This document shows, piece by piece, positions 28,833 to 52,400 of a stretch of 64,000 bases of DNA (position 1 is the first letter of the stretch; each line of letters begins with the position of its first letter). The stretch comes from Bispira polyomma (lineage: Eukaryota): positions 17,484,001-17,548,000 of the forward strand of contig OZ287752.1 in the NCBI GenBank assembly GCA_965649765.1, written 5' to 3'. The translations under genes and the position numbers were made by a program. The notes under the pieces are model-generated. The model was not told the origin of the DNA. It saw only the letters and a program-made list of their open reading frames with translations, and searched no databases.

Positions 28833-28914
28833 TGTGGTTGAATGAGGAAGTATTATGTAAACAAGTAACCAAGGGATATAAAATGTCTCTTTATTAATAC
28901 AGACATATATAAAA
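28833..28914 (+). promoter_or_regulatory. Candidate promoter of gene B: RUNX, ETS, FOX and TATA-like motifs
   Basis: TGTGGTT 28833, GAGGAAGT 28844, GTAAACA 28857, TATAAAA near 28877 and 28908; alignable with 49250-49370 upstream of gene C. Confidence 0.4.
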
Positions 28915-28968
28915 CAAATGATATTCAGATATCAGAAAATACTGATGGGTTATATTCTGTGAACTAAT

Positions 28969-29020
28969 ATGGAAGGGATACTTATTCTAATAATAATGTG
29001 TGTATTACACCTGTGTGTGT
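28969..29020 (+). CDS. Gene B signal peptide exon [17 protein letters not shown]
   Basis: T|gtgagt; homologous to 49373-49424. Confidence 0.85.
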
Positions 29021-32000
29021 GTGAGTACTAAATATGTTTATACTGTATGTAAATGTTCTAAGATTAAGACTAAATATTGCAGGTTAAATAGTTACTGTCT
29101 AAGTGTATAACGGTATAAATTCCACTTTGTTTTATAATTTATTATTGAAACCCATTTGAATGACAGTACGTTTCATTTGGTATGGGTTGCTTGTTTCAAT
29201 AGTATTGTCAATTTTTGTTTGAAAAACAAAACAACTTAGTAAACAACATCTATCTACCTGTAGTCTGCACTTTTGTTTCAGCCATCACATGTCCGAATTC
29301 AGGCAATGAATACAACAAAGAAGTGTATGTAGAGGCTGGAGGTTCAGCAAGTTTGCAGTGCGGGTCATTGGGTCAGGATACCGCAGTATTTTGGTATTAT
29401 GGGCCAACGTTACAAATCATTGTTATCCACAACCTTGATGGTATTAATGATCCTGTTTACGCAGACAAAGACAACTTCCCCAGGACAAAGTACAGCTATA
29501 GTGAAGTGGATCTATCACTGACTGTGAACAATGTGGGACTAAGTGATCAAGATTGTTTTAGATGTACGACAACTCCATCTGACAGCCAAACTACAAGTCT
29601 TGTCACTGTTATAGGTATGTGTCTATTGATATCTTCAGTAGTTATTTTATGTATTTATTATTTTAATTTCATACAATGATCAAGCTGATGATGTTTTACC
29701 TCTGCAAAGAGGATTTAATTATTTTCCATTTTACATATGTGACGTACATTTGGTGGCCCAAGGGATTAACTGCTTTTAAACACTTCAACAGCCAGTAAAA
29801 TTGTTAAAGTATGAAATTCAGACAAGCATAAAAATGTAATTGACTTTTTAAATGTTTTTAACATGATAGTGTGTGTCCTTGATTCTGATTTCCTATAGTG
29901 AAAATGTAAATATTCATGACTAGCTACTTACTATTTATTACCCACTGAACACCAGACCATAATCCAGAATTTAAAGCTCATACATTTATGTTTAACGGCT
30001 GTCGAGATTTCAATGTTATTTTTATAATGATGCAGGCAAGGCTTATCAAGTAGTGTCTATATCCAACAAATTTATTAAGTATTTAAAGAATGGAGGATTT
30101 ATCTAAAATAAAATTACTGCGAAACACACCAGTACCCGTCTGAAATTATTCAAACATTATTCATTGAATAATAAATGCAACTTATTTTATGACATTCTTT
30201 GTTTTCCATATGTTACTGACTGTGTGATGCTATAAAGCTACACATTCCAACTTATTTAAGTATTTTGTGTTGTATATCTAACATTTAAAAAATATGAGGA
30301 TATTTGAGTATGATCATAGATCAATATATATGATAAAACATACAGTAATATCAATGTAAAATTACCCGACTGAAGCCTGGTTTTGTATGTTATCACAGAA
30401 GTGGTTAAAAAATTAACAAAATTAACTAAAATTAACAAAAAATGATACACCATTTAATAACAAAAGTTTTATTCTTAACTTACATATATTTCAGCAAATT
30501 CCACTTTGATATTGGATTTTGTAAATGTAATACCCAATCAACAATATTTTTTGACCCAAATAAGGATTTTTTTTGACAATTGTGTCATAGGTTGACATAC
30601 GGTTAATTGATGTTGCTGCTATTGTCAAGGATATATTTTATGTTTAGTGAGACCAGAAGCACCAAGCTATACAGTATTTCCCACTTTTCAAGAGAACACA
30701 GATACTTCTGTCCAGTGTAAAGTGTCATCTGTGAAACCAGGGATTGGAAGTCTCCAGTTTACTGTCAGAGTAGATCCAGACTTCAGTGTTGAGAGTTCAG
30801 ACAGTGAGTTGTCAGAGGTAGAGGTAGACTCCAGTACAGGGACTGTATCAGTGAGTTACACAACAGAGATCAGACTACAGAGAAAACACAATGGACAGGA
30901 TACGGTGTGTGAAATAGAGTGGAGAGGAGAAACCTTTATTTCTAATACACAACAGGCTGATGTGGAATGTAGGTGGTAGATACTAGATTACATTATGTAG
31001 CTAGTTCTTTAAAGTAGTAAATATTATTAGGTAATTAGGTTGTAACCTTTACTCAACAATTACAGATTGTACTTTAACATTATGACGTCACTGTTCCACA
31101 ATCATATTTTATATATATTTCAGTCAAAGCCTCACAGCTGACTATGGAAAACTTATAGCACTACAACATTATTACTGTTGTTTCTGAAAAATGTTGCATT
31201 GGTTTATTAAAATTGACAAATCTTTTATTTTAGTCAAAGCCTCCCAGCTAACTATAGATGGTGCCCCAACAGACTTAGTAGAAGAAAACACAGATACAAC
31301 AGTGCTGTGTACAACAGATGGGGGTAATCCTACACCTGTAGCGAGGTGGTACAGAAATAGTCAGACTGTACCTGTAGATACTGACCTAGAGACTGTGACT
31401 GATACACAAACTAGTGGTGGTCTGTACAATGGTAAAGTGAGAGTGAGTACACTGAATATACAGGCTGATAGGACTCTACATGGACATGTATACAGATGTG
31501 AAGTGGAAGACACTAGTTTGGAGGAATCATTTGAACTAGAAGTGCGATGTGAGTTGATGCAATTATATTTAATCAGTTACTGTGCTAACCTATTAGTAGG
31601 AGTTAACTTTAGTTAACTATAATTTTGGCTACTGAGGCATATTTCATAATATTATTGAGGTATATTCATAGATTGCAGTATAAAATGACAGATAAAATAT
31701 TTTGTATTGACTAATAAACAAGGCTTGGAACCTGTTGAGTATAAATTTCTGAAAGCCTACTACCAGAGGGAATTAATATATCCTAATATACTATTATTAC
31801 AAAACAGTATCAAGGGAACTGTTACATGCATAGTTATAATCATATCAACAGAACATTTTGTTTTTATCTACCACTGTGGTTTAATGGGTAACAAACTTAG
31901 ATGGGTCAGCTTCATTCTAAATTGATTTAATGTGGTTTCAAATTTGTGGTTTTGATTACCCACATGCGGTTTAAAGAAGTAGATTAATTTTGTTTAAAGT

Positions 32001-35000
32001 GGTTATTTCAAATAATTAGTATTAATTATTTTGTATTGTAAAGGAATTACCCATTTTAGATGTTAACCCTCCTCTGAGTCTGTCTGGAAATCCCTCTACT
32101 AGTTCACCTGTCAGTGAGGGAGACTCTGTACAGTTTACATGTTCACTGGATGCAAACCCCTCACCAAGTTATTCTATCTGGACAAATGATGATGGTATAC
32201 AACAGAAGTGGGCAGACCTGGGTAAAGCTCAGCACATCATTACACTGACACTAGAAATACAACACAACAAAGTGGGACTGTTCTGTAGAGCTGAGGGAAA
32301 TCTGGATGGGTATCCATTGGTGTCAGACCTGAAAACATATACTGTTCAATGTAAGTAATATTTATATTTATAAAAGATTGGAGTTTTAGTGCTGGGGGGA
32401 ACAATGTATACTACTTGGTCAAAATTCTGCACTATAAACCACCAGGCAGGGGCAATGAAGTACCAACTTTTTGACATAAAGCTGTGGCCGAGATTCGACC
32501 CCACCACTACAGAGGTGGGTGGCTAGTCCTTTAAACACTACAAGATAGAACCCCAGTAGTAATACCTATAGCAATTTGTTTTGGATGTAATGATATTATA
32601 TCTGATATTAAGGTTTCAGTGCAATAAGATACTGTCATTAAATGTAAGTATTATTTTTACTCAATGTGAGATAGAGTGGATTTTATTATTTTTAGCATGT
32701 TGATATATAATCTGAAAATCTATTTGTTGTATCACTGAAGCAGTGGCTTTATATGTACTATGGCTAAGTTTGTCACTTGTTTGTCACAGAAATACGGAAG
32801 AGTATCAGGGCCAATTGAGAATAGCAATTTTACTTAATATTTTCCCAAGAACATGCTACACAAACGGTACACAATTTACATACAGAAAAACACATAAATA
32901 CTGACTTAATGTACATCACCAGAAACAGTAAGAAGTCAGTATGATTTTGTATGATTTATATTTTTAATTAAAACACAAAATCTAAGATAATTTTAGACAA
33001 GCCAATTGGTTACTCTTTTCTAAACAGAAAGCTTGAAATACATCACAAAAATCATATACACATTGGGTTGTGCACATAATGTCTTAATATATATTGGTTC
33101 AATACCCGCATTATGTCAATAGAAATGCCTTTCTCTAAGATTTAGATTAATCTGAGCTAAATTGAGAAAAATGGTCAATTCCAGATGTTAAATATGATGT
33201 TTAGTATAAGAAGGTAATAAAAGATTGGTTTGAAAGTTTATTTGTTACATATTGGTATGTATTTACAATCTGTTATTTTAAAGGTTAAAATATAATGCTT
33301 AAAATTTTTGATATTATGTCTGTTGTGCATTATGTCACAATAGAAATGCCTTTCTCTTGGATTTGCTCATAACATGAAGTTTTGTGTTGATTTGAAATTG
33401 TGTGACGCCACAAAACAATATCATTATACTACCGTGTTAAACACTGTGTTACAAAGTATTAAGGTTTCTAAGTTGTGTTTGCATATAAAACCTGATTGTC
33501 TTCATAATTTTCCGATGTACCTTTGTCAGTGTTAATGCCATGCTATAGTGGTCTGTTCAGGTAAACCAGAACCACTTAATGTACAGACATGTTGTTTTCT
33601 ATGTCTCAAGTTTCAGCTTCTAGTATCACAATGACTCAGTTTCCCTCCAGTCCAGTCTCTGAGTACACAAAAGTGACCTTTATCTGTGTAACTGATGAGG
33701 CTCAACCTACTGCTGATGTGGAGTGGAGTGTAGGAGGGAACAGTGTCAATTCTACTAGTGACACTACAGAGGAAGGGATGTATAATACAGAGAGGAGGAG
33801 AAGTATGTTAGAGCTGACAATGGACAGAACACTGAATGGCAAGGAGGTGGTGTGTTATGTTAGTGGGAAGTCAGCAATGAGAGACCAAGTAACACTGGAT
33901 GTTAGATGTAAGTAATAGATTTAGGTCAAGTATTAGCCGGGATACATACAGTCACATGTGATCTTAGATGTAAGTAATAAATCTTATTGGTGTTTTATGT
34001 CAGTGGAATTATATTATTGAGAGATACTTTGATGATGGATAAAAGATTTAAGTAATAGATTCAGGTGGAGTTTATGTTAGTAAAAGTTAGAAAATACATT
34101 ACTATTGGATGTTATATCCACTATCTTTCTTGTAATTCTTGGTTCTGTCAGACTTCGTTCTTTAATAGATTGAATGTTATCTCATCCACCGTGACCAAAT
34201 CATGAAGGTCAGTGGAGCCAAGTCATGTTCTTTTGATTTCCCATTTGATGTACCACAAGGTCCTTGGGACCCTTCTGTTTTCTTTGTACAAAACTCCACT
34301 TGGAAAAGTATTATCCTGGCACCACAAAATATAAACTATCACTTTTCTGCAGACGGTAAACAAATCGACTGCTCCATCATCCTATAAAAGTATTAACAGG
34401 TCTTGGAACAGCTTTCTAGCTGCCTTACATTGATTAAATCTTGACTTCGTTATTCAAAATTGAACCATGAAAAACGTTTTAAAGTTCTTTCCAACAACTT
34501 TCCTTGGTAACAGCACAAAAACCTGAAAATTACTTTTGACTTTGTTGGCTACTTACAAAAAATGTTTTAAACATCTGTTGATCCTGCTACTGCAACATCC
34601 GTGACTTTAGAAGAATTTATTGGCACCTAACTCTGGAAAATGTTGAGGTTGCAAATGCTCTGTTGTTAAGTAAATTCGATTACTGCAACTCACAACTTTA
34701 TTGAATTGGACAAGGACAAATAAACAACCTGCAAAAAAATTCAAAACCTCTGCATAATTGTGTCACATACAACACCTCTGCTTAAAAAAATGCACTGGCT
34801 GTATTGAGTTCCGTGTTATATACAAGGTAAATGTCCTCATTTATAACACTATCCATATGCAGCAACCTGCCTACATCTCATCTATGTTATCTGGCAATAA
34901 TCTTACAAGAGAAAATCATCTCTCCACCTCCGGTTTCTTACCCATAAAAAACTGGCTGGTTAGAAATTATTCAAAATTGCAGCACCTGCTAATCTTGACA

Positions 35001-38000
35001 CTAAGACAAGGATTATAGGCTTCAGGAAAAAGCTCAAAACACATCTCTGTCAACTTGTTTTTCTGCCTGAACATGCATCTGCTGGTCAGGACTGCATACT
35101 GATTGGGATGTGCACTACAGAGGATGCCTCATCATCGATTTTGGCACTATATAAGTAAAATAGAATTAGTACAGACTCAACAATTAATAGCATTTTACTT
35201 TTAGACTAGACTGACAGAACGGGGTCTGACAGAACAGAGAATTATGAGAAAAGAGTGGATATAACATCCAATTATTACTAAATTTGTTAAATATAGTCCA
35301 CATTCTTTTAATTTTTTAAGATTTGAGGTCTTAAAATAAATTGTCAGCATATATGATACCAACGGCTTATAATTTAATTGGCATATTGTATTGTATTGTA
35401 TTATGCATTTTTAATGAGCCTTATTGATGCTAGGCATCTTCTTAGGCGCAACATCAGAATTAATCACCCAATAGAAAAATGAAAAACATAGCCAGGTCGT
35501 AAGGATGGATGCGTCAGCACCCAGGAAAAGGACTACGGCGGATAGGCGAGTCTGAAGAGATAGGTTTTAAGCTTTTTGGTAAAACCCAAAAGTGTTTTAA
35601 GCAGTCTAAGTTCAGCTGGAAGAATGTTCCATAAAGTAGGTGCGGCCACCGAGAAGGCTCTTGATCCTACCCTCTTGGTGGTTTTTTTTTAGGAAACAGT
35701 CTTTTTTCCCTTTCAAGGCTGCTGAGGGAGAGTTTAGTAGCGAGGTAGTGAGGCTGTTGAGAGACAACAGCATTAAAAATGGTTAGGTACATTTTAAACA
35801 GGATTCGATAGTGAATAAAGAAGCCAGTGAAGTTTCTTAAGGTATGGAGTGACATCAGTATGGATGCTGTTAATGTGAGGAAAAAATGAAAAAACAGGGT
35901 CGATAGTGACACCTAGGTTTTTGACCTGGTCTAAAGGTTGAATCTCATTACCCAGCAGTGTGATCGGGAAAAGTGATCTGAAGTATTCACTGTGTTTCTT
36001 ATTTCCAATTAGGATGAATTCAGTTTTGTCAGGGTTTAGTTTTAGTTTGGAGTAGTTCATCCACGTCTGGAATGAGGAGAGACAGTCGGCAAGTAAATCC
36101 AGGTTGTATCCGGCATTATGTGTGTTAAGAGAAAGATAGATTTGAGTGTCATCAGCATACATGTGATGTTTAACATTGTTATTATTGATGACTGCACTGA
36201 GAGGATGGGTGTAGAGGGTAAACAGTAAAGGGCCGAGAACCAACCCCAAATGGTAGGTTAAAAGAGGATTAAATGTGGTCGCCCAATTTGAGTTTTTTTG
36301 GTTCTAAGAGCAAGGTACGATTTGATCCAATCACGGACAGTACCATTAAGACCAAACCACTATCTGATGTATGACCTTAGATGTAATTTAAGTAGTTGCA
36401 ATGAAGGTCTATTTTGAGTTATAGTTTGAAAAATAGAGTCAATGAATTGACTGATCTGGTCAGATTTAATATTTGTGTCATCTTTCAAAATACATAATTT
36501 CTTATTTTATTCATCGTTATTACTTCTGTAAGACTATTTAGTGTAAAGTTTATGACATATATTGTTGCTTACTTCATGCTGATATCTGAAGAAGCTAATT
36601 TTTTCTCATTTATAATTGTGTTTGTTTCATATTGTAGTTCCACACAATGTTGCAGTTGTTCAGAATCCTTCAGATTCTGTGTCAGAAGGTGTCAGGCTGA
36701 CATTGTCCTGTGAAGCTACAGGAGGGAACCCATCTGAAGTGTTGTCTTATAGCTGGAGTTTTGTACCTCGGTATGAAGAGAGCAGTAATCCGAGTAGTGA
36801 CACAGACAGAGAGTTACAGTTTGACAGTGTAGAGTACCGACAGGCTGGAGTGTACAGTTGTGAGGCTAGAAATGACGGAGGTGTGAACAGTGATCGCAGA
36901 ACAGTACTTGTACAGTGTGAGTATTGTAGTGTTGTATTGCATTTGGGATTAACATTGCATTGACATGTTTAATGTCAAATCTGGATGGACAGTTAGCTGG
37001 TAAATGAAATTACAGCAGGTAAGCGAGTGTGCCATCACTACTACAATCTAGTCTGGTTAGGTGTGAGAAGATGCATTGCGAAAATGGGAGTTTCAAAAGC
37101 CCAATAAATTGTAAAGTTGTATTTTAATGATAGATATAATAGAAATACAGAGTTTTTCCATGAATATAAATATCTCAATTTAGGCTTCCCTCGGTATTTC
37201 AGTCCTTGCTCACTCCCGATACAACGCTATACAAGGCATAGTAGGCCTCAAAATGCTTTCCTAAGTATCCCTACCTTTGAACGATCAGTTTACAAGTCAA
37301 AAAGACATTTTAACAAATATTTCTCGCATGATGCTCTTAAATGGTGGAATGATCTGCCTCATGGTATTTGCACTGCTTCCTCACAGCCTGTTTTAAAAAA
37401 GCTGAAAACCTACCTATTTAGCAAGGCTTTTCCACCTTAGCCTCCTTATCTTTTTTCGCTTCTCCATAGTCACAAACCCTGTACGTCCAATGGCTTTATG
37501 AAATTGTCAAAATTATTTTCTGTCACCTTAGAATCTGCTGGCACAGAGATAAGCGCTATAAAAGTTAGATTAGATAAGGTGAATGTTTCTGTTTACTCAT
37601 TATGTATTATTTAAACCTATTTTAGGTTTATCAATACAATACTTTTTACTACTTCCAGTAGGTATTGTAAATGTTTAAAATTGAACAAAATATAATTAGT
37701 GTATTATAAGCCGTGCATAGAGTAATATTAAGTTACACATATAGAAACAGCATTGCAATGTTCATTAAGCAGAACGTTTTTGTAATGACCTATTTAATAC
37801 TACATACATGTATTGCTATTTCATTCATTGTATGCATACATTAAATATATATAACAAGATTAGTTAATCAATAAATTGTAAAAAATAAGTTGATATAGTC
37901 ACCGGTAAAAAGTTGTATAGTGTTAACATTTTAGCAAGTACATCTACACTCTTTACCTTTTTAACAATATTTTTAAAGTGTCATCGCAGCCAAAATTAAA

Positions 38001-41000
38001 TTTACAGAATGTACAGAATACCAAACTAAAACAATTGTAGTTGTAAAAGGTGTACCAGTTGGGATATTGGAAAAGTAGACACTTGTTCAAGTTGCTATTG
38101 TATACCACATACAATACCTGTTAATCACTTACTAGTGATATTATTCTATGTACTTTGTCTCTAAGTTGAGAAAGGGTTATATTAAATCTAGATTGATTTG
38201 ATCAATTGTTTGTATTCTGTTTTAGTTTCCCCAGTAGATGTAAGTTCCCCCATACAGAAGATCTTATATACAGAAGTAAACAAAAAGGCTTTACTAAACT
38301 GTACAGTGAGGGCTTATCCATCAGTCACTGCTGATCATGTGAATGTCAAGTTTGAAGATTCTGAAATACCTGCTAACAGAATACATGTGGAAGCAGTGGA
38401 GGATAAAGTGGATGAGACTCTGATAGAATTGACATTTGACCCTGTAACATCTGAGACATTTGGTCTGTATCAGGTTGTACTAAATAATGGTGTTGGAGAT
38501 GAAGTTGTTGAACTGAACTTGAGTGAACAAGGCTAGTATTCTTCTGTGTTTTGATTTTTTTGATAAAGAGAAAATGTTGCAATAAGTTAAAAAGCAGGCA
38601 CATGTTAAGATTTCACATATTTAACAAATATAACTACACCTTTCCCACATAGGCATCGACGGGATTCGAACTCATGCCGCCCAGAGGTGAGAGACCAGTG
38701 ATTGTGAAGCGCAATGCTTGCTAACCACTAGGCCACCGCGGCCCCCATAGTCATGAGGAGTCATGAATTTAAATGTTATACAGTTATATTATGTTGATGT
38801 TTTATCCAAAGGGGCAAAGCTTGACATGAATATACAATTATAGTATAGCTCATCATAATAGTTAATAACTGAACATTGTGATTAACTATTCAAATACATG
38901 TATTAATATTATTCAGGTGTACCAGAATCACCACATTCTTTGGTATTTGAGTCAGTAACTGCCATATCAGTGACCCTCTCTTGGATTTCTGGTCAGAGTC
39001 GTGGTGCAGAACAAACATTTACAGTGTATTACAGACATCAAGGGGACATCAAAATACTGTATTATGATGGAATCCAGACCAGTGAAAATAGCCAAAGAAC
39101 TGTGCACAAAGTGTCAAGTTTATTACCTGATACAGAATACTTCTTTAGGGTTAAAGCACAAAACCAATATGGAGAAAGTGATCATCAGCCAGAGATATCA
39201 GTTATTACTTCAGGTACCAGCGTCTGCCTAGTTGTGCCATCATTATTATTCAATAAATATGTATTTGCATCCAATTGCATAGACACTAATTGGAACTTCT
39301 AAAGTAGGCGGAGTTTTCTATTAAGATAAATGAAATAAATTTGCCCTGAGGCAAAGTGGGTAAGACATTCACTTAGGTACACAGAGGATTGGGGGTTTGA
39401 TCAGAGTTTTGGGACTGTCAGGTACAGACAAATACATACTGACTCAGATGTACTGCTTACAGTGACAGCCATTTCCCATAAGGTGATATTCTTTGTGGCT
39501 AAGGAACCTTGGTAAAATTGATAAATACCCTGGGTATACATTAATGCCGTGGTTACATTGAGCACATTCGTGTTATGTTTAAAATTCCGTAAATGTAAGA
39601 AAACGGAAATAAACGAAATGAAAATTTGGTGAAATGTAACAAAAAATGTATGGGCTATTTTGTACACGTTTTTTACATATCTGTACAGTCATTTAACATG
39701 TTTTAATAGCTGTTTCAATTATGTTTGGATGATTAGCAACGTTTTAAAATACGTTAGCCACGTTTCTAAACATGTTTCAATCTCGTACTCTTCGTTTCAA
39801 ATATTATTTGAATTCTATTTGAATGTATAGTACGTTTCACTGTCGTCCTTTAAGTGATATACGCATTGAATATGTGTCATATGTTGTCCGCAAATATACC
39901 AACTGTTAGGGAAAATGGCAGTAGACATAAAAAAATTTGTGCAGCACAAAATTTAAGACATTCACAGCGATTTTCTTTATTAAGGCATCATCTTACTCAT
40001 GCATGCTTACATTTACTTAAGTATACTACGTTCACTACGCAAATACATATGTTTTACCTTACATTAGCCATTTTTTGTGTGTAATCGAAACAAAAGCCCA
40101 GTGTGACCACAGAATAAATAGCATTCATTTACATTTGGCTAATAATCTTTAAGAGTGATATTTTTACTTTATCAAAGGTCTACCATCAGTGAGAGGGATA
40201 TTGGAGGCAAAAATATATGAAAATGTTGTAGTCTTCCACTGGGATCACATAGATGGAAACTACACTAGAGTGGCTTTATTAAAGTGTTATTTTGGAAGAC
40301 AAAAATGTATTTCAACTTACAAGATTATTGATGTCAATGTTACAATTTATGCACTGGACACAGTATATGATGGAGAGGAGTATTACCTTGTAATATATCA
40401 GGATACTGATGAAGTAACAGCCCAGAAATTTACGACTGACAAAAGTAAGTTTGCCTGTGAAAGACAACTTGTCTCTCACATTGGATAAGAAAACTTTCAT
40501 ACTATATTCATACTATAAAAGTAAACACTAATATAAATTTGACCTACAACAGATTAGAATTGCAAAATAATTTTTAAGTTTCCCTTTTCAACACATTCTA
40601 CAGAAATTGCTAATGATAAAGAAACTGGACTAATAGCAGGGATAGCAGTTCTCTCTGCCATGGTTGGTTTACTTGCAGTTTCCCAAATTATACTGATTGT
40701 TTTGTTCAAAAGAAGACAGAACAAAAATTGTGACAGTACCCAATGCACTTCAGTAAGTAATAATAACATCACATTCTATTTAGCAGACTTATGTCACTGA
40801 CAACATAATTTGTGTAATGTGTGTTCTTTTATTTTAGAGAGGTCCTCAGTGGCCGAGTGGTTAGCAAGTTTGGCATCTAATCACAGGCTGTCACCTGTCC
40901 CAATATGACCCTGGCTGTTAAACGGGACCTAAAACCCTAAACTTTGACATTGTCTTTTATTTTAGTGAACAATAAGATTAACTTTTGGTAAAATGTTTTT

Positions 41001-41866
41001 ATTGAATTGTTACATGTATATTTTAAAGAATGACGGTCCAACAACATATGAAAATGTACCATCTACAAATGAAATTAGCAACTATGAAATGACAAAACCG
41101 GAGGAACCAACACTACCAGCTGAGTATACAGATTTGAAGGTTTGGCCACTGCATAATTGATACAACTCAAATAATCACAACAAGTATTATAACTGACATA
41201 GGAAATATTTGTTTGCATTATTTCCAAGTAACTATTTAGAAATATTATTTTTCATACAGATATTTGCTTTAAATATGAACTTTATTATCCACTCTAATGT
41301 AAGTGTGATGTTTTCATACAATGTACCGTATCAACTGGTTTTTAGTGTCAATTCTGGATAATTTATCAAACACAAAGTTGTATAGTAATGTGGCTAATAT
41401 AAAATATCAACCTTAAACAACATAATGGTATATTAAACTCGATTTTTAGAGCTTCATAAATACGCATTTGAGACTAATTTGTGTAATAACTGTTTCGAAA
41501 GTAGTGAACCTTTGTATCTTTTAAGTAGTTTTAATATTGCCATATTAAACAAATCAATTCATAAAGTTATAAAACCTGTTGATCAAAATCAAAAGTAAGC
41601 AAGTTTGTATTTGATGTTACTTTTTTAAGGTTACAACTCTGTACTGTTTTGGTTTGTGTTATATAACCCCCGTGAGATTTCAAATATTTTAGGACTTTTT
41701 CTGACTGTTTTGTGTTATATTTTGACCTATATAAGCACAATAATTATATCTTATCAGTGGACTCGAGAAGATATTGTTTGATTCATATATTTTTAATATA
41801 CACTACTCTGGTAGTTTTATTATTATATTATTATTCCAGCAAGTGACATATGAAACCATCAACTGA
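28969..41866 (+). CDS. Gene B: multi-exon IgSF type-I receptor (SP, V + 6 Ig, FN3, FN3-like, TM, ITSM/ITIM-like tail)
   Basis: 13 in-frame exons: 28969-29020, 29282-29614, 30648-30968, 31234-31548, 32060-32350, 33611-33907, 36638-36916, 38226-38531, 38917-39213, 40178-40444, 40604-40752, 41029-41139, 41840-41866(TGA). Confidence 0.87.
29282..29614 (+). CDS. Gene B Ig1 (V-set-like, 4 Cys)
   Basis: [30 protein letters not shown]; 333 nt, same as gene C exon 2 (alternative acceptor 29264). Confidence 0.88.
30648..30968 (+). CDS. Gene B Ig2
   Basis: [28 protein letters not shown]; T|gtaggt. Confidence 0.9.
31234..31548 (+). CDS. Gene B Ig3
   Basis: [32 protein letters not shown]; T|gtgagt. Confidence 0.9.
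32060..32350 (+). CDS. Gene B Ig4 (absent from the supplied ORF track)
   Basis: cattttag| [58 protein letters not shown]|gtaagt; 291 nt open. Confidence 0.9.
32383..32554 (-). mobile_element. Old degenerate tRNA-derived SINE related to family 1
   Basis: ttggtcaaaattctgcact.taaacc..taccaacttt..cata..gattcga..cagaggtg..cacta parallels the family-1 minus-strand sequence. Confidence 0.6.
33611..33907 (+). CDS. Gene B Ig5
   Basis: tctcaag| [32 protein letters not shown]; T|gtaagt. Confidence 0.9.
34150..35170 (+). mobile_element. Degenerate L2/CR1-group LINE 3' portion
   Basis: [14 protein letters not shown] (degenerate YADD), [31 protein letters not shown] fragments. Confidence 0.75.
35385..36360 (-). 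mobile_element. L2/CR1-group LINE 3' portion, internally deleted
   Basis: [44 protein letters not shown]; (attgt)n tail at 35385-35402. Confidence 0.9.
36638..36916 (+). CDS. Gene B Ig6 (I-set-like)
   Basis: [30 protein letters not shown]; T|gtgagt. Confidence 0.9.
37170..37577 (+). mobile_element. L2/CR1-group LINE 3' fragment
   Basis: [19 protein letters not shown] followed by ccttagaatc..agataagcgctata(ttaga)n tail. Confidence 0.85.
38226..38531 (+). CDS. Gene B Ig7 (single Cys)
   Basis: [28 protein letters not shown]; donor G|gctagt (GC), vs G|gtcagt in gene C. Confidence 0.85.
38638..38746 (-). mobile_element. SINE family 1, tRNA-like head only
   Basis: Minus strand ggggccgcggtggcctagtggttagc (A box)..gagttcgaatccc (B box)..tatgtgggaaagg, then ends. 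Confidence 0.9.
38917..39213 (+). CDS. Gene B FN3
   Basis: [36 protein letters not shown]; G|gtacca. Confidence 0.92.
39544..40113. mobile_element. MITE with imperfect TIRs (Harbinger/PIF-like ends) in a gene B intron
   Basis: Left gccgtggttacattgagc vs right gcccagtgtgaccacag; TAA-like flanks; CpG-rich relative to surroundings; not seen in the equivalent gene C intron. Confidence 0.6.
40178..40444 (+). CDS. Gene B divergent FN3-like domain with Cx5C
   Basis: [30 protein letters not shown]; A|gtaagt. Confidence 0.82.
40604..40752 (+). CDS. Gene B transmembrane exon
   Basis: [50 protein letters not shown] |gtaagt. Confidence 0.88.
40838..40952 (+). mobile_element. Internally deleted tRNA-SINE (family 2) with 13-bp TSD
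   Basis: gtggccgagtggttag A box joined directly to the tail cccaatatgaccctggctgtt..aaactttgac; TSD tcttttattttag at 40825-40837 and 40953-40965. Confidence 0.8.
41029..41139 (+). CDS. Gene B cytoplasmic exon
   Basis: [37 protein letters not shown]; collinear with gene C 58865-58975. Confidence 0.85.
41840..41866 (+). CDS. Gene B last coding exon QVTYETIN*
   Basis: ttattccag|caagtgacatatgaaaccatcaactga; paralogous to 59114 onward. Confidence 0.82.
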   Translation, partial: QVTYETIN

Positions 41867-43180: not shown

Positions 43181-44040
43181 TGTAATTGTAATTAGACTTT
43201 TATTGCGCTTAATCTCCCCTTAACAAAGGGGACTCTAAGGCGCACCAGCACAAAAGACAGTTATCCAATTTCCAAAATCAAGGGACAGAAAAAGGGTCAG
43301 CAACATAGAGCGCGCCGGGGGATGATTGAGACTAAGGTGGATATGCTTTAGTGTACAAGTGGGTTTTAAGCTTCTTTCTAAAACAGGCTAGTGAGGGGGA
43401 AGCACGAATCACATCAGGAAGACCATTCCAAACAATGGCAGCATCAAAAGCAAAGCTGTGACCAAACTGTTTAACCGACTTTTGAGTAGATGGGTGGAAC
43501 TTTGGAACAACAAGGAAATTACTACCACTCTGACTACGTCTGGTATTGTAGGAACTACTGTAAGTGGAAAGATATGGGACAAAATACTTTGGAAACCCAG
43601 TGTGGAGAAACTTATAAACAAGTGTAGCTGTCTTAAACACTGAACGCTGTTCAACAGGGAGCCAATGCAATTTCTTAAGAACAGGAGTTATACTAGTGTA
43701 TCGACTGGTGTTTGACACAATTCTAGCTGCACTATTTTGAATGCGTTGTAATTTGCGTAAATTAAACTTTGAGAGACTCCTGAAAAGTGAATTGCAGTAA
43801 TCCAGTCTACTACTGACAAAGGCATTGGCCACAAGTATAGAAGCATCATAAGTGAGAAACCGTCTGACACGTCTAAAGTCACGAAGTTGCATAAAACAGC
43901 TTTTGCAGACACTCTGAACGTGTTTAGAGAAAGAAAAGTCAGAGTCAAAGCATACACCCAGGTTCTTGACAGAATCAGCTGGACTGAAAGGGCTACCCAG
44001 GATGTCAACTGGAAACAATGCTTTCAACTTATCCCTATGT
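43181..44040 (-). mobile_element. Young 5'-truncated L2/CR1-group LINE
   Basis: Uninterrupted 231-aa ORF2 C-terminus (KNLGV..SRLDYCNSL..LQRIQNSAAR..LHWLPV..WNGLP..KAYPP*), 3' hairpin and (ATTACA)n tail; possible TSD catattgt 43176/44041. Confidence 0.93.
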
Positions 44041-44957
44041 CATATTGTGACATATTGTGAATTTATGGCTGCTATTTAGTGTGCTATTGAAATATGTGTG
44101 GTGTCAGGTGTTGTTGACCACTAGACATTCAACAATGATAGTAATGTGGGGCGTGATGTGAGTGATAAGTTAGCAAAATATCAATAAGCTAATAATAACC
44201 TTAATATTGCAGTGTATGATTTTTGGGTGGACAGCCTAAATGCCTGATGGGCTCTATGTGCTGCTCTAACTGCAACTGCAACTACCTTGTAAACCTGAAT
44301 CGTCTATTACTTCTCCAAGTTTATTGTTGCTATTTTGAGTCATGTCCAATCTAAAAAGCAAATCCTCAGTATAGTTATTTTTCCAAGAATATGGACAACT
44401 CTAAGTTCAATATCTGGCTTTGCTATTTCGATAGAGATATTTCTAGCCATAGCACAAGTGTGAAGTCTTTCAGATTTCTGGATAGAACCTGATTGTCACA
44501 ATGGACGAGTAATTTTTTGCCTGTCCATTGCCGTTACCATACTCTTATGGCTACCAATATGCTTATCATTTCAAATGTACTATGGTGTACTTTTGAAAGC
44601 CCAAAAAAAGGCTTTTGTATATACTTGATCATTACATCTGGCCCCTAGGCCTTGAAGGCGAAAGTCTAATTGTTCCTGCTCTGTTATTGGTGCATGATTT
44701 AAAATGCCATCCATTGAATGTGCGTAAAAATGTCCAGCATTCGGTTTAAGAAAGAATGCTCTGGAGTCCTTAATTCACTTTGAGATAGTAGTAGTGAGCC
44801 TAATAGAGACTGTAATTGCCGTTTAGAGCATGATTTCCTATTCTGTATTTCAGCTTTTTTGTTATCTCGATTGGAGACTTATACTCTTCTGTATTTATAC
44901 AGACGCCTAAACATACCATTTTTGTGGTTGTTTTTACTATTATCTTTTCACTTAGTG

Positions 44958-45205
44958 TGAATTGAATTGAATTTGGATATTTAACGTCCACTCTAGTACC
45001 TTTTTAGGTTATATTGGGATGGGTAGTTGAAAACGCTGAAGGAAACACTGCATACAGTTGATCAAGGTTCTGCACTGAAACCAGCGGCCCACAGTAAGAA
45101 ACTACCACCTTTCCCACATAGGCATCGACAGGATTCAAACTCACAACCCCCAGAGGTGAGAGAGCAGTGATTGTGAAGCGCAATGCTTGCTAACCACTAG
45201 ACCAC
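44958..45205 (-). mobile_element. SINE family 1, near full length
   Basis: Reverse complement of 46434-46686; (tgaat)n tail. Confidence 0.92.
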
Positions 45206-46433
45206 AAATTGTCAGAGAAGGCACATTTAGGGCCATTGTATATCCTAATAATTGGCAAAATTCACAGTACAATATATAACCAGACCTAGTGCATCGCAGA
45301 ACCGACGCATATTTGTATCCACCAGAAAGACAAAGCTCCCTAGGTAGCAAGCACCCTAGCTAGCACCTAGGCTAGAAGCCTATGATTTCCTATAGGGCGT
45401 TTATACAAAAGCCTTAAATGGCACAAGCGGGTTTCACATTGAAATCTGTGGGACCTAGTGTGAAACCCACTCTTTCAAAAACTATTGTTGTGTTTGAAAT
45501 GATTGATAAATTGTGGTGCTAAGGCCAAAGCTGATAATGTCATCAATGTAGTTTATGACGTTGTATTTGTGTGATGTCATGAAAAACATTATTGCGTCAC
45601 TTAAGCGCTGAAAATTGAGCAGCCATAGCAATACCCAAATGGGAGAAATGTGTCTATATAAACATTGTCTGGTTTTAATCCTAGTAATTTCAGGTTAATG
45701 TAAACGAGTGACTTATGTCATTGTATATTTTTAATAGCTAAATAACTAAATGCCCCTGTGGATAATTTTAGTCTATATTAACCTTATGTGCACCTCTTCC
45801 GGTTTTGGACAGGTCATGAAAGGAGGTGATTGGTTTTGATTGGAGGTGTCCTAAAGGGACCTATAATGGCACCAACATCTTTATCATCCTTAAAATCGAA
45901 GGGAAGGCCATAGCGTAAAAGATTAAAAAGTTGTTTATCCCAATAATAATCCAGCAATTTTTGCCAATTGTTCACATGCAATTCTGATTTAACCAGGGTT
46001 TATCTTTTACTACATTATGCAACTTCAAGTGATCCGGAATGTGTGCATTTTGGTCATCAGTTACGGCCATTTGCATGTCCCAAGTAGAATGAAACCAATT
46101 TTTTCTTTAATTTGTTTGTTTAAAGCATGAAACATATTGTTATCTTTTACTAGTGCTATTGCGATTCTGTGCTTCTTTTTAACCTGGAGTTTTAGTTGAT
46201 ATTTGTCTTTCGTTTTTTGCGTTAACTTTGAACTAAGTATAAAAACCGTATCTGTTTTTACCTGTGACTTTTATTGTTTGCTCGCATAAAGTATTATCAG
46301 CCTGATTTGTACACGTTCCATTTTCATATTGATTTTATAGTATGTCATGATCCCTCAGCGTCATCAAAGGGTTTAACAATGCCAATAATCTTTCTTTGGC
46401 TGAATTTAGTATTTTGGTTTTTAACTACATCAG

Positions 46434-46686
46434 GGGGCGGAGGTGGCCTAGTGGTTAGCAAGCATTGCGCTTCACAATCACTGGTCTCTCATCTCTGGGT
46501 GGCGTGAGTTTGAATCCTGTCGATGCCTATGTGGGAAAGATGGTAGTTCCTTACTGTGGGCCACTGGTTTCAGTGCAGAATCTTGATCAACTGTATACAG
46601 TGTTTCCTCCAGCGTTTCCAACTACCTGTCCCAATATAACCTGAACAGGTACTAGAGTGGACGTTAAATATCCAAATTCAATTCAA
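46434..46686 (+). mobile_element. SINE family 1, full length, 15-bp TSD
   Basis: A box gtggcctagtggttag, B box gagtttgaatcc, (attca)n tail; TSD ttttaactacatcag at 46419-46433 and 46687-46701. Confidence 0.95.
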
Positions 46687-49372
46687 TTTTAACTACATCA
46701 GAATATGACTTGTTTTTGAACCTAACCCAATGAGCCCTCTAGGTAGTGTGGCCCCTGTTTTCATACACATTACTATACAGACAAGTTCATTTGTTTGCGC
46801 ACGCAACTATAAATGCAAAAAGCCTCTCATGTATTTGTTTACTCTGCGGATTCAGTACTGTTCTATCACCAATTTCTTTCTTGATAGTTGATCTTTCATA
46901 TTGAGAATCCAAATTTCCACAGTTTTTCCTTTAATATTGCTTTCATCTTAAAAATTGTTTAAGTTAGGATCCCAGTATTTAAAGAGACATTTAAAACTAT
47001 TTAAATTTAGGGGGTTTCTAAATTTCAACTTAACATGTGATAAGGTTCAAAATAGAAAACAGAAGTAAAGTGGGATCCACATAGATTTTCTCTTTAAAAG
47101 ATGACCAAAGAATTTAACTGTAGGCCGGATTTTATATTTACAACTTGTACTTGTATCTTTGAAATTAATGCTTTGTGCTTTATAAATTTGTATACAAACT
47201 ATTTAACTGACTGATAATGGCTATTGAATTTACCTATTCAGAATTTACCTGTTAAGCACAGATTATCAATTTGGATGTAGTCAAAGTAAACTAAAGTTCT
47301 TTAAAGTTTCAGCTCGGGATTATTTTACAAAGCAAAGTGTAAATATGGCTCTCAGAAATGCATAATTGGATTGAGGTAATTGTGAATTAGATTGAAGGGA
47401 TTTGGCCGACTAAATGATCAAGTAACTGTAGTAATTGATGAATCAGATCTTCAATATTTGATCTCAATACAATATGTTACATATATTTTGTTAACCAAAA
47501 AATATTAATTTAATTTGAAAGAAAATTTACTTTGATATGTAGCAAATCACTTTCTTTGATTAGGTTGGTCAGCAGTCACCGTTCAGCAGTTGTAATTATT
47601 GTGGTTGTGGGATAATCTTTAATTATTGTTTAGTTGTCGAAATGTAGCTATAGGAATGAGGCCTTTGAGAATAAGACTACTGTTTGAACATCTTAGTTGA
47701 TTTTTGACCTTTATCTTCTTTGATTTTTGACGGTACATGTCTCGCTAAAATCATAACTTAATCTCTCCCTTATTAGTTTGCAATAACTCCATCTGATTAT
47801 TCTGATATATATCAATTTCTCACTACCTAACATTTTGATTGTAATTGATGAATGATTGTGTGACCAACAATTTGATCCTAACTAGCTCTACCCCAACAAC
47901 TAAACTAAACAGCAAATGAAAGATTATCTCAATTTTATGAAGATAAAAATATGTTTCGATGTTTTGACAAAACAGCCAAGGCTCCATACGTCTGAGGAAA
48001 TCTATTTATATACTTCTACTTTTACAGGTGGTGTGCCTTTCACCATTTTTACTTTCAAAGCCTTGTTGGGCTTTAACCGCTTGAAACTCTTGACCAACTT
48101 GGAAAAGCATTATTGCATCGCCTTATTTATTTTTGAATTCACAGGTTTTATTTATGTTGCAGTCATATGGGTACTAACTTCCAATGGCCAGACAAGAGGC
48201 ACATACGTATGCCTTGGTTCCATGGTCACTTGGGGCCAATAAATTTGCTGTTTAGCCCAAACTGCTTCTCGACCACCCCTTTATGATTTGTGGATACCTG
48301 TTTCGTTGAGTTGAGCTAACTCTTTCAGCCGAGAGTCCACGTGTGGCTTTCTTTACAAAAGTTATACTTAAAGGTTTTTTAGTGGAGGCTTTGAGATATA
48401 CGTATTCAATGACTGTTAAGGATTTGAGTCGAATTACACTTGAATGTCTTCAGAATTAGAATAAAATACAGCCTTTAAATAAAGCTCCACCAAGAGAGAA
48501 TGAGCATATGTATTTTTCTCAGAGACAATTTAGGTAATAATAATTTTAACTTCATAAACTGAATAAACTTTTAGAATTTTTTTGTATCTATTTGTGTATT
48601 TTGTTTCTTTTCAATTTATTCTTTTTCAAACGTAATGAAAACATATATTTGTATTTTGATGTGCTAAGAGTATAAACAAAGATATATAACTATCATAGAT
48701 TAAAATTTTGGCTGGGAGTTTTTGTTTCATTAGCAGCACATAACTACACTGTACCATAAAATAATACAACAATGAAGTAATATAATACCAGCCATCCAGT
48801 GAATGTCTATAAGATCTGCACAATAACATTATGAATCTCTTGACATAGTAAATTTGATAGGGAAGTATATTATGGAGGAGGAGATAAGATATCTAGTGCC
48901 AGGTGAAAGAGAAAGATAAGAGAAAGGACGTGGGGGCAAGGAAATGGCAGAAATACTACAGTATTACGAATAGATAAGGGGAAAAAGAAATTGTTTATAA
49001 ATTTTAGTATAATTCATATTTCACAAAAGGAAAAATGTCTTTCAATGAGTGACATCGTAATTAATTTAATCGCTCTTAAAAGTGGATAATGCCAACGTGT
49101 TACGTGTAATTTGCTACTAATTGCAATAGTAGATCAATTTTACATTACAGTCTATTTATTTCAATCTTATGTCGCTTTTATACTTCCTTTATATGTTAAA
49201 ACAAACTATATATATATATATAGATATATATATATATATCCATATTACTTGAGTTTGTGTGGATGAGAAAATGTATTGGTAAACAGAAAGTAAAACGTCA
49301 TTCTGTAAATACATAAGGCAAAACATATGTTACTATCAGAATATACTACTAGGATATATTCTTTGAACCAAT

Positions 49373-49424
49373 ATGGAAGGGATTATTATTATAATAATAA
49401 TGTATGGTCTACACCTGTGTTTGT
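49373..49424 (+). CDS. Gene C signal peptide exon MEGIIIIIIMYGLHLCL
   Basis: T|gtaagt; 52 nt as in gene B. Confidence 0.85.
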
Positions 49425-52400
49425 GTAAGTACTAACTAATCTAATTCTTTATATTCCGTATTTATAAAAGTTAATGTTAAAGTATATATTGAACTAACTA
49501 TTATGATTTATGCATAAAACTTTTAATAAATAATTACACTCACGACTTAAAATATGTGTGTAAAGATCTATAGAATTTAGATCATTTTCTTGAGATTTCT
49601 TTGTCTTTAATCAAATATCAATCCAGAGTTAGAGATTTTAGCAAATTGATTAGAACTTACATTTATGCTTTTATTATTGCTTCTTCAAAAATATTTGCCG
49701 TTAGGCTTCAGTTCCTTCTTTAAATATTATTTTCAATTGTTTGTGTGGAAAGCAAAACAACTTAGTGAACAACATATATGCAACTACTAAGTAATCATAT
49801 CATACATGTACATTAGTCAGGACAGCAAATTAGTAGTGTTTTATTTTCAGCTGCCAGTTGTCCTCATTCAAGCTATGAATATGACAGTGAAGAGTTTGCA
49901 GAGGCAGGAGGTTCATTTAATTTACAGTGTGGATCATTGGGTGAGGACACAGTAGTAATTTGGTCCTACCAATCTGGAACACTTCTGGTAAAACACAGCC
50001 TTCAGGGTGGTGACACTGGCGTTGTGTATACTAATGAAAGCATCTACCCCAGGACAAAGTACATTTACAGTGAGGTGGATTACTCACTGACTATACACGA
50101 TGTGGGACTAGAGGACCAGAATTGTTTTAGGTGTGCAACAAGTCCATCTAACAGACAAACTACAACTCTTGTTACACTTATAGGTATGTATGCAGCAACA
50201 AACTCTCTAATAATTACTTAATTCAATATATTTATTTGATTATGTATGTTCTAAGGAGATTTGGAGTGTATTAACATTTGAATATGTGGTTATTGTCCAC
50301 GTCTATATTTTTCTTTCAGTTACTCTCAGGGTGCCTGCATTTTTCAACTGACTTTGTAGTCTCATGTATTCTTAGCTGTATGGTTTTGATGTTATATTAC
50401 AGGTGAAGAAAGAAGAAAATTACCAATCATTCAATTATTACTATGGTTTATTATGATGTGCCTTAAGTATACTACTGTACAACTGGTTTCTGATATATTA
50501 TATATTGTGAATCCAGTATGAGTACAAAGGTTATATTTGGTCATTGTTGTGAATGTTTTTAAGTTTAAGCCAAGAAAAGAAAAAGAAAAACATCTCAAAA
50601 CTTAAGTAAATTTGACAATCTAGTTAATGCATTCACACCATTATCTGCCTCAGGCCTGTATAGGTACCTAATATGTCTAACAGGCAAACTATTTTGCCCT
50701 GTATATTCACTTAATATATCAGTGATAATTTGATATCACAAATAGATATAAAAAAGTGAGACAATATCAATAATGAGTAAGAAGAATCAAATCAGTGTCT
50801 GATATATGCACAAGTGGTGATATTAGTGATATCCTTGTATCCAACTGTAAATCGTTTTAAATCATTGGTAAAATTTCCATGTGTAGTTGTTGGTGCTTCT
50901 TTGTGCAGACTGGAAATCACTATTAAATTTTTTATGTGTAATTTGAGACACTTTTTTCAACCTGCCCATCCATATTAAATTTTACATCAATAACACAGTC
51001 ACAAAAGATTTCAATGGCCTCTAAGGCAAATTTACACAGTTTGTCTACTGTCCTACCCACAATAATATCTTTCACCTCATCATTGCTCAAGTCCAAACTG
51101 ATAAATGTTGTCTGGGGACTCTGACCAGCGACATACCTTCCACTCTCCAACCCCCAAACACAATTCTAATAAAGTGAAACTTTAAAAGAGTATGATAAGA
51201 ACAAGAACAACTGAAGTTCTGAAGGCTGCACACTATTGGCATTATAATATACCAGTGATACCTTGCTCACAGTCATATTCGATTTTATGCTATTTTTCAT
51301 TCATGACACTTACGCCATTTTCAACAAATTTGTTTTTGTTGTTTTTAGCCCATTTTGTCATACAGTTTAATCCCAAAAAATTGTTGTTAGAGACCATTGA
51401 TATCATCATTGTATTTTAATAATTATAGAATATGGGAAACAATTACACCCTTCCTAAACGCATGAATACTATATTGTCTGTTTAAATGTTAATATATATA
51501 TATATTATGAATCCCCAGCAGTCTGTCATTGTGACCTAGTGGGTAATCCACTCACTTGGGAATACAGTGCTTTAGTGCCAATCTGGGTCCAGCAGGTACA
51601 GGCAGATAAATAGTTGCTGGTGTATACCATGCAATTGGTCACTTGATCCAACTAAAATAGTTTCAGTGGGTTTTTTTATAATATCAACAAAATGTTCAGT
51701 TTATTGCATTGATGTTTTCATTTTGTGTTTAGTAAGACCAGACACACCCAGCTTCACAGTATTTACCACTTTTCAAGAAGGCACAATGGAATCTATCCAG
51801 TGTAAAGTATCATCTATCAAACCAGGGAAGGGAAGTATCCAGTTTACTGTCAGAGTAGATCCAGACTTCAGTGTTGAGAGTTCAGACAGTGAGTTGTCAG
51901 AGGTAGAGGTAGACTCTAATACAGGAGCTGTGTCAGTGAGTTACACAACAGAGATCAGACTACAGAGAAAACACAATGGACAGGATACAGTGTGTGAAAT
52001 AGAGTGGAGAGGAGAAACTTTTATTTCTAATACACAACAGGCTGATGTTGAATGTAAGTAGTATATACATATGGTAGGTTACATTATGTAGCTAATCCTT
52101 TGAAATAGTAAATATTGCTAATTAATTAAGTAACCTTTGTTCAACAGTAATATATGGTATTGTAGCATTATAATGTAGCTAATTCTTTGAAATAGTAAAT
52201 ATTACTAATTAATTAAGTAACCTTTGTTCAACAGTCATATATGGTATTGTAGCATTATAATGTAGCTAATTCTTTGAAATAGTAAATATTGCTAATTAAT
52301 TAAGTAACCTTTGTTCAACAGTCATATATGGTATTGTAGCATTATAATGTCATTATTCTACAGTCATTTATTAAAATGAAATGTTACTGGTAGCTGTATT

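What the first reader, a model, noticed from the sequence alone, without database searches (positions are those of the whole stretch)
29282..50183. Divergence between B and C is concentrated in the V domain C-C'-C'' region
By-eye counts give about 55-60% aa identity for Ig1 versus about 88% for Ig2, with the FN3 similarly conserved. Within Ig1 the framework is kept ([29 protein letters not shown]), but [29 protein letters not shown] vs WSYQSGTLLVKHSLQGGDTGVVYTNESIY is nearly unalignable at identical exon length (333 nt). This is the usual ligand-binding face of V-set receptors, consistent with diversifying selection.
Basis: partly seen in the sequence, partly recalled or inferred. Interest (0 to 1): 0.7.

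Follow-up and report, generated by a model that had tools for sequence, protein, structure and literature searches.

The report
Old V head, homogenised receptor stalk
Two neighbouring cell-surface receptor genes of an invertebrate differ most in their outermost domain mainly because one gene carries a much older version of that exon on a stalk that is likely kept uniform by DNA exchange between copies, while across this roughly hundred-gene family one face of that domain, likely the binding surface, shows an excess of amino-acid changes.

Summary
The coordinates, identities and V-set fold are right. Ig2 and FN3 are, however, the two best-conserved exons (Ig6 66%, FN3-2 67%, TM 55%), and the equal exon length hides two compensating indels. 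B-C silent divergence is about four times higher in V (dS 0.72 vs 0.19 and 0.16). dN/dS is 0.45 as elsewhere, and 0.34 in C-C'-C''. B's V is the outlier: its branch has dS 0.47 and dN/dS 0.34 (p=0.001), and the intron behind it has no homologue found in the genome. So B bears an old V on a stalk homogenised by conversion or shuffling. The family-level intuition survives. Without B, V shows sites with dN/dS near 2 (p=0.018, post hoc). A test written down in advance replicated in three sister V subfamilies (M2a/M1a p=1e-13, 8e-5, 7e-5; outward C/F-strand residues dN/dS 1.65-3.7), while 11 of 12 non-V sets showed nothing. These are nephrin-like ITIM/ITSM receptors, about 100 V-exon hits mostly on one contig, evolving like Hydractinia Alr or CEACAM. 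Ligand, expression and alleles are untested.

The parts
28969..41866 (+). Gene B: 13-exon model, 1012 aa, no internal stop: leader, V, six further Ig domains (C2, C2, I, C2, I, I-like), FN3, FN3-like, TM, two tail exons
   Evidence: model from splice sites; no RNA; Pfam
28969..29020 (+). B leader exon; it and the upstream DNA are typical of the neighbouring paralogues (median 80% vs 82%)
29282..29614 (+). B V-set exon (C26, W37, C94; extra C3/C91 pair); the old outlier, branch dS 0.47, dN/dS 0.34
29392..29478 (+). B C-C'-C'' span (W37-F65); 22 of 30 columns differ from C; pairwise dS 2.05 (saturated), dN 0.71
29560..29589 (+). B F strand to FG/G (R93, T95, T97, Q102): the other half of the front face; its positions carry dN/dS >1 in the family
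   Evidence: face assignment by W/C-anchored alternation, recalled V-set register
29615..30647 (+). B intron V-Ig2: no alignment to the same intron of 9 paralogues and no second hit in the genome
30648..30968 (+). B Ig2 exon, homogenised (82-91% aa to 16 paralogues, including four whose V is only 33-37% identical)
31234..38531 (+). B Ig3-Ig7 exons (31234-31548, 32060-32350, 33617-33907, 36638-36916, 38226-38531); family-typical dS; GC donor after Ig7
38917..40752 (+). B FN3 (38917-39213), FN3-like (40178-40444, no Pfam hit) and TM (40604-40752) exons
41029..41866 (+). B tail exons with four tyrosine motifs: TTYENV (ITSM-like), SNYEMT, AEYTDL, VTYETI (ITIM-like)
   Evidence: motif consensus recalled
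49373..58921 (+). Gene C: 685-aa model; leader, V, Ig2, Ig6, Ig7, FN3, FN3-like, TM; lacks Ig3-5; tail stops at TAG 58919 before any tyrosine motif
49851..50183 (+). C V-set exon; family-typical age (branch dS 0.14, dN/dS 0.76, n.s.)
49961..50047 (+). C C-C'-C'' span (W37-Y65)
13159..22103 (+). Gene A, same architecture with an A-type V exon (about 13192-13551) and a tail with WTYENT, LTYETL, ATYADL; its V subfamily is one of the three replicates

Best explanation
B and C are two copies in a large tandem family of nephrin-like cell-surface receptors with predicted inhibitory (ITIM/ITSM) tails, and they differ most in the V exon because B's V exon and the intron behind it are several times older than the rest of gene B, likely because gene conversion and exon shuffling keep the stalks alike while V heads escape; across the family the outward face of V's C-C'-F-G sheet shows dN/dS above 1 and is likely the ligand-binding surface under diversifying selection. 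Shown: gene anatomy; dS excess in B's V; purifying dN/dS on B's branch; orphan intron; discordant exon trees; mix-and-match heads, stalks and tails; dN/dS above 1 in V of three sister subfamilies. Inferred: conversion or unequal crossover as the homogeniser; selection keeping B's V from being overwritten (a divergence peak, as in the opsin case of PMC3924837); binding through the GFCC' face; phosphatase recruitment by the tail; and a role as variable inhibitory recognition receptors (self or pathogen ligands), with C as a tail-less decoy or dying copy.
For: B-C ML dS: V 0.72, Ig2 0.19, Ig6 0.37, Ig7 0.36, FN3 0.16, FN3-like 0.34, with dN/dS 0.39-0.56 in all. B is an outlier only in V (dS to paralogues 0.68 vs 0.26 among others; its nine other exons 0.16-0.35, within or below the family range). 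B terminal dS is V 0.47 vs 0.03-0.12 in five other exons. Upstream DNA is typical, but the V-Ig2 intron matches 0 of 9 paralogues, whereas 18 other pairs share theirs at median 83%, and it is unique in the genome search. V and Ig2 trees reject each other (AU 3e-9, 0.015). PHI p: V 0.014, Ig2 0.0008, Ig3 0.0004. Four genes carry a 33-37% V on an 84-91% Ig2, and A-type fronts sit on B-type backs and the reverse. Selection: T4 (16 seqs) 2dL 59.7, TA (12) 18.9, T3 (6) 19.3; M8 vs M8a 58.0, 17.8, 19.5. The six pre-specified outward positions give 1.65, 2.34, 3.67 (p=0.008, 0.00025, 4e-5) and inward alternates 0.47, 0.06, 1.11 (prediction noted). The same six positions in 7 stalk-domain sets give 0.22-1.05. 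TA shows no recombination signal (PHI p=0.52). The first two tail tyrosines are kept in 20 of 21 B-type tails.
Against: The B-type signal appears only after removing B (post hoc). It is modest (p=0.018), falls to p=0.078 with segment-specific trees, and stays below 0.05 in only 3 of 8 leave-one-out sets. The face result depends on the C'/G register (dN/dS 1.16-2.01; 3 of 7 front-face sets n.s.). Recombination inflates the LRT: for T4, 7 of 17 null simulations passed 5.99 (max 28.8 vs observed 59.7), and segment trees cut it to 14.8 (p=0.0006). T3 has a gappy alignment and 6 sequences. In TA one of the six columns fell on a gap. One stalk domain, Ig5, also gave p=0.009. The dS peak inside B's C-C'-C'' (0.83 vs 0.37) is not significant (p=0.12). 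Synonymous-rate variation across sites was not modelled. Many paralogues carry stops or frameshifts in other exons. Whether B's V was imported or merely spared cannot be told: no donor was found and the root of the B-type V tree is unsupported.
Confidence: 0.7

Rival explanations
1. One reading: diversifying selection on C-C'-C'' directly drove B and C apart since their duplication.
For: 22 of 30 columns differ (p=0.007) and dN is 0.71 there vs 0.22 in the rest of V. Family dN/dS is 0.82 in the span vs 0.46 outside (p=0.058).
Against: dS rises more than dN (2.05; dN/dS 0.34). B's branch in the span has dN/dS 0.34 (p=0.046 vs 1). All-9 site tests give p=0.80-0.83, where simulations with uniform selection were detected in 20/20, 19/20 and 15/20.
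Confidence: 0.1
2. B's V plus intron is a cassette imported by a double crossover or long conversion from an older paralogue that is now lost or lies on another haplotype; no selection is needed to keep it.
For: The old segment is bounded: typical upstream, foreign V-Ig2 intron, typical Ig2. Whole-V swaps exist in the cluster (type-2 V on B-type Ig2).
Against: No donor in the assembly (best other V 67%; intron unique). B's V stayed under purifying selection throughout. Monophyly of the Ig2 exons of type-2-V genes is not rejected (AU 0.108), so one swap suffices there.
Confidence: 0.3
3. The family-wide dN/dS above 1 is an artefact of recombination and relaxed or pseudogene copies; V's front face is merely unconstrained surface.
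For: PHI significant in B-type V, T3 and T4. Null simulations inflate the LRT. Many copies are damaged. M0 dN/dS of 0.55-0.76 in V is near Ig4-Ig7 (0.60-0.68).
Against: TA has no PHI signal yet 2dL 18-19. The T4 value exceeds 17 of 17 nulls and B-type 30 of 31. Equally recombining Ig2/Ig3 sets give p of about 1. The excess sits on one sheet while back-sheet strands are 0.11-0.70.
Confidence: 0.12

Closest known systems
Hydractinia Alr family (bioRxiv 10.1101/2022.03.04.482883; Alr2 domain 1, PMC8282982)
   Same: Clustered invertebrate IgSF genes, one domain per exon, N-terminal V, FN3-like membrane-proximal part, ITIM/ITAM tails, many pseudogenes. Exon shuffling is reported: Alr12A/B are >90% identical except domain 1 at 64%. 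Positively selected sites lie on the C/C' side.
   Different: Here there are up to 7 Ig domains plus two FN3(-like) against 1-3 Ig; canonical C/W framework; no sequence hit to Alr in my searches; no allorecognition, homophilic binding or allelic data.
Primate CEACAM N domains (PMC11646289)
   Same: V-type N exon with nonsynonymous excess in CC'C'' and FG; conversion among paralogues; ITIM receptor beside tail-less decoys.
   Different: In CEACAMs conversion equalises the N exon between receptor and decoy. Here B's V is the part that escaped. No ITAM or charged-TM activating partner was seen in the tails and TM exons examined.
Nephrin / Sticks-and-stones-like proteins
   Same: Best named sequence hits (8 of 10 rows, 24-27% identity); V followed by C2/I domains and FN3; tyrosine-bearing tail.
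   Different: Those are low-copy conserved adhesion genes (recalled); this is a lineage-specific expansion of about 100 loci with shuffled modules. Orthology was not tested.
Divergence peak under gene conversion (opsin exon 5; review PMC3924837)
   Same: A locally high divergence, silent sites included, inside otherwise homogenised duplicates.
   Different: Here the peak spans an exon and a whole non-homologous intron in a many-copy family, and selection against conversion is inferred, not shown.
CD2/SLAM, nectin, TIGIT, CAR V domains
   Same: Top Foldseek matches of the B model (TM 0.65-0.77); these bind through the GFCC'C'' face (recalled).
   Different: 10-24% identity; fold likeness only.

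Membership tests
V-set Ig domain | Pfam V-set above curated cut-off | tested here: met
   B 32.8 bits vs cut-off 26; C 21.7, below cut-off but best family
V-set Ig domain | B-F cysteines, C-strand Trp, C' and C'' strands | tested here: met
   C26, W37, C94 invariant in 11 of 11; strands in model; V-domain fold matches
Positive selection between B and C | dN/dS >1 in C-C'-C'' or on either branch | tested here: not met
   0.34 pairwise in the span; B branch 0.34, C branch 0.76
Diversifying selection on V in the gene family | Significant site class with dN/dS >1, V-specific, on one face | tested here: met
   T4, TA, T3 p=1e-13, 8e-5, 7e-5; B-type without B p=0.018, with B p=0.8; 1 of 12 non-V sets significant
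Concerted evolution / exon shuffling | Discordant exon trees, within-exon recombination, chimeric genes | tested here: met
   AU 3e-9 and 0.015; PHI <0.05 in 5 of 9 exon sets; chimeras
ITIM/ITSM inhibitory receptors | I/V/L/S-x-Y-x-x-I/V/L and T-x-Y-x-x-V/I motifs in the tail (consensus recalled) | tested here: met
   B: VTYETI, TTYENV; first two tyrosines in 20 of 21 tails; C lacks them
ITIM/ITSM inhibitory receptors | Phosphorylation and SHP/SHIP recruitment, inhibition | not testable with these tools
   needs cells
Alr allorecognition proteins | 1-3 Ig domains with non-canonical V motifs; sequence homology to Alr1/2 | tested here: not met
   7 Ig domains, canonical C/W; no Alr among named hits; no direct pairwise comparison run
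Alr allorecognition proteins | Extreme allelic polymorphism and allele-specific homophilic binding | not testable with these tools
   only contigs of one study, probably the source DNA
Siglecs | Essential F-strand Arg after the usual Cys position and B-E instead of B-F disulfide (recalled) | tested here: not met
   B-F cysteines present; residue after F-Cys is T/A/L in B-type V
Nephrin/Sns orthologues | Orthology by phylogeny and conserved low copy number | tested here: inconclusive
   24-27% hits for the Ig3 profile only; no tree with nephrins

The most novel reading that the evidence does not exclude
This is an undescribed invertebrate counterpart of vertebrate inhibitory-receptor complexes, or of an allorecognition complex: about 100 receptors in which ancient, separately diversifying V heads are recombined onto a shared pool of stalks and ITIM tails, so that specificity, reach (4 to 9 Ig domains) and signalling are shuffled independently, with tail-less copies such as C acting as decoys.
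Probability: 0.25. Interest if true: 0.8.

Novelty: new member of a known kind. Interest (0 to 1): 0.5.

Why it matters
Variable V-domain inhibitory receptor clusters are well known in vertebrates and in Hydractinia but thinly documented in other invertebrates. My searches for such a family found no description (open-access library only). This cluster gives named residues on one face to mutate, natural head/stalk chimeras and a natural tail-less variant, which makes 'what do invertebrate ITIM receptors recognise' testable. It also shows that a low-identity V exon between neighbours can be age rather than a burst of selection, even in a family whose V domains really are diversifying.

Tried and rejected
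Allele survey: 3 runs, 1 study, contigs only; B's V is identical over 28900-30699 in all three and may be the source DNA. No divergent B allele was seen at 80%, but contigs drop variants, so nothing follows. No RNA holder was listed. Homodimer prediction of B's V: no answer (score 0.01, alignment not used). Homologue searches with B's V and FN3 among longer proteins: 0 and 1 weak hit. The profile search gave unnamed single-exon relatives at 27-49% identity. The Atlas look-up gave no result. Rooting B-type V with those relatives had support of 19-51 and the constrained AU test crashed, so 'B is basal' is not claimed. My first face classes (dN/dS 2.01) were drawn after seeing the variable columns; I rely instead on the W/C-anchored six positions and the pre-noted replication. 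C as a neutrally decaying pseudogene: its branch dN/dS is 0.26-0.76, different from background in 0 of 6 exons, so unresolved. Siglec and Alr membership were rejected as listed. Rows dropped: B-type V used 9 of 15 hits (1 near-duplicate, 2 frameshifted, 3 partial; 4 of these added back with breaks as missing gave p=0.018). T4 used 16 of 17 (1 partial). T3 used 6 of 10 (1 stop, 3 near-duplicates). TA used 12 of 15 (3 partial or stop). Stalk sets excluded copies with stops and 8 truncated or distant rows.
Full report
What is there. The window is G000:C5:17484001-17548000 in a 1.04-Gb animal genome; I did not name the species. It holds three tandem + strand genes of one architecture. B models to 1012 aa with no internal stop: leader, V, six more Ig domains, FN3, an FN3-like exon, TM and a tail with TTYENV, SNYEMT, AEYTDL and VTYETI. 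C models to 685 aa, lacks Ig3-Ig5 and stops before any tail tyrosine; it is the only one of 21 B-type tails without the first two tyrosines. Genome searches give 112 Ig2-like and 86 FN3 matches and about 100 V-exon hits including fragments (15 + 34 + 56), mostly on C5 between 10.6 and 27.4 Mb. The closest named proteins are nephrin-like at 24-27% (8 of 10 rows).

The observation. Coordinates, phase and peptides are correct. The span W37-F65 is C-C'-C'' in an AF2 model of pLDDT 85.6, which matches CAR, TIGIT, 2B4 and nectin V domains. There 22 of 30 columns differ (p=0.007). The equal 333 nt hides one extra codon in B's CC' loop and one in C's C'C'' loop.

ML dS and dN/dS for B vs C: V 0.72 and 0.45; Ig2 0.19 and 0.42; Ig6 0.37 and 0.56; Ig7 0.36 and 0.45; FN3 0.16 and 0.39; FN3-like 0.34 and 0.56. 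In the span dS is 2.05 (saturated) and dN/dS 0.34 (NG86 agrees). Synonymous differences are 40% in V vs 19% in the other five exons (p=1e-4), and the replacement share is 65% in both.

Which gene moved. B's V has median dS 0.68 to its paralogues, against 0.26 among them; B's nine other exons are ordinary. B's terminal branch in V has dS 0.47, dN 0.16, dN/dS 0.34 (p=0.001 vs 1); in five other exons its dS is 0.03-0.12. Non-coding DNA agrees. B's upstream region is family-typical (median 80% vs 82%), but its V-Ig2 intron aligns to 0 of 9 paralogous introns, while 18 other pairs share theirs at 83%, and it has no second genomic hit. B thus carries an island of old sequence (V plus intron) between homogenised flanks. 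Exchange is general here. V and Ig2 trees reject each other. PHI is significant in 5 of 9 exon sets. Four genes carry a 33-37% identical V on an 84-91% identical Ig2, several join A-type fronts to B-type backs or the reverse, and the Ig count varies. V types T1, T2 and T3 each group with unnamed proteins from other records (support 95 and 99 for T2 and T3, weak for T1), so the heads look older than the stalks they sit on. Whether B's V was spared by selection against conversion (the divergence peak of PMC3924837, passages read) or imported from a lost copy is open. The extra dS peak inside C-C'-C'' is not significant (p=0.12).

Selection in the family. With all 9 B-type V exons there is no signal (M2a/M1a p=0.83, M8/M8a p=0.20), though simulated uniform selection was detected in 20/20, 19/20 and 15/20 runs. 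B's long purifying branch breaks that uniformity. Without B, 27% of sites have dN/dS 1.96 (p=0.018); 1 of 31 recombination-null simulations reached this, and segment trees give p=0.078. This was post hoc and is fragile, significant in only 3 of 8 leave-one-out sets. I therefore wrote down a prediction and tested three independent V subfamilies. T4 (16 sequences) gave 2dL 59.7, TA (12) 18.9 and T3 (6) 19.3, with M8/M8a alike. The six outward positions anchored on the C-strand Trp and F-strand Cys gave dN/dS 1.65, 2.34 and 3.67, the inward alternates 0.47, 0.06 and 1.11, and A'-B and D-E 0.11-0.70. B-type without B gave 1.73 (p=0.034), with B 1.42 (n.s.). The same positions in seven stalk sets gave 0.22-1.05. 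Of 12 non-V exon sets only Ig5 was significant (p=0.009); the 5-sequence A-type V set was not (p=0.51) until enlarged to 12. Recombination inflates the T4 statistic (7 of 17 nulls above 5.99, max 28.8; segment trees 14.8, p=0.0006), but TA has no PHI signal (p=0.52). The target is better described as the outward GFCC' face and its loops. Face assignment rests on the recalled V-set register, not on computed exposure.

How it likely works (inferred). Each gene presents one V head on a stalk of variable length. The GFCC' face would bind a variable ligand, and the tyrosine motifs would recruit phosphatases and damp a response. Duplication, exon-limited conversion and unequal crossover reshuffle heads, stalks and tails. 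Selection diversifies the face among recently expanded heads, while a long-separated head such as B's is conserved in its own specificity. C would be a short, non-signalling decoy or a dying copy. Ligand class (self, homophilic or microbial) is unknown.

Comparison. It works like Hydractinia Alr (abstract, outline and Results part 1 of 4 read; Alr2 selection passages) and like CEACAM N domains (passages). It is not a member of Alr or Siglec by the features tested, and nephrin orthology is untested. A review of invertebrate IgSF has no mention of nephrin (passages). Five searches found no description of such a family; other papers were seen as listings only and no supplements were read.

Verdict. 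Observation partly confirmed; interpretation wrong for the pair and right in spirit for the family. New member of a known kind; interest 0.5.

Noticed in passing
window 58865-58921, 59114: C's tail has three lesions at tyrosine motifs (TYENV changed, TAT to TAG at the second tyrosine, 8-nt deletion in the last exon) while all its ectodomain exons are open; assembly only, not checked in reads.
   Followed up: partly
window 52054-55750: C lacks Ig3-Ig5 with no remnant; the intron holds a tandem repeat of about 87 bp (52083-52350) and a recombinase-like fragment (54760-55095).
   Followed up: partly
G000:C5 17.01-17.39 Mb (L079-L112): Chimeric genes: A-type V-Ig5 on B-type Ig6-tail (e.g. 17.079, 17.160, 17.264, 17.377 Mb) and B-type fronts on A-type backs (17.063, 17.130 Mb); the switch falls at the Ig5/Ig6 intron.
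   Followed up: partly
G000:C5 17053125, 17104832, 18622034, 18778155: A second V type (33-37% to B) sits on B-type Ig2 (84-91%); close unnamed relatives P0010 and P0014 exist in other records.
   Followed up: partly
window 38531-38533 and paralogues: A GC splice donor after Ig7 is shared by 6 of 17 copies, including B.
   Followed up: partly
window 29290 and 29554: An extra Cys pair (C3, C91) is kept in 10 of 10 intact B-type V exons; likely a second disulfide tying the N-terminus to the F strand.
   Followed up: no
window 16709-17004 vs 31224-31522: Gene A's fifth Ig exon is 77% identical in DNA to B's third Ig exon, a shared exon at a different position.
   Followed up: no
B-type Ig5 and TM exons: Ig5 gives M2a/M1a p=0.009 (one G/N/D site) and the TM exon has dN/dS 0.72.
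   Followed up: no
G000:C5 18.66/18.71, 18.62/18.78, 18.54/19.16, 17.06/17.18 Mb: Near-identical gene pairs (97-100% in the parts compared): recent segmental duplications or uncollapsed haplotypes.
   Followed up: no
window 1-3200 (+), 4117-8572 (-), 26049-27205 (-): RT and tyrosine-recombinase ORF pieces, by motif (recalled) YR retrotransposons; earlier scan notes call such elements Ngaro-like in this genome.
   Followed up: no
window 35797-36303, 43335-44039 (-); 26567, 38632, 44960, 46436, 62702: LINE-type RT fragments (label recalled) and a 170-250-nt high-copy repeat in both orientations.
   Followed up: no
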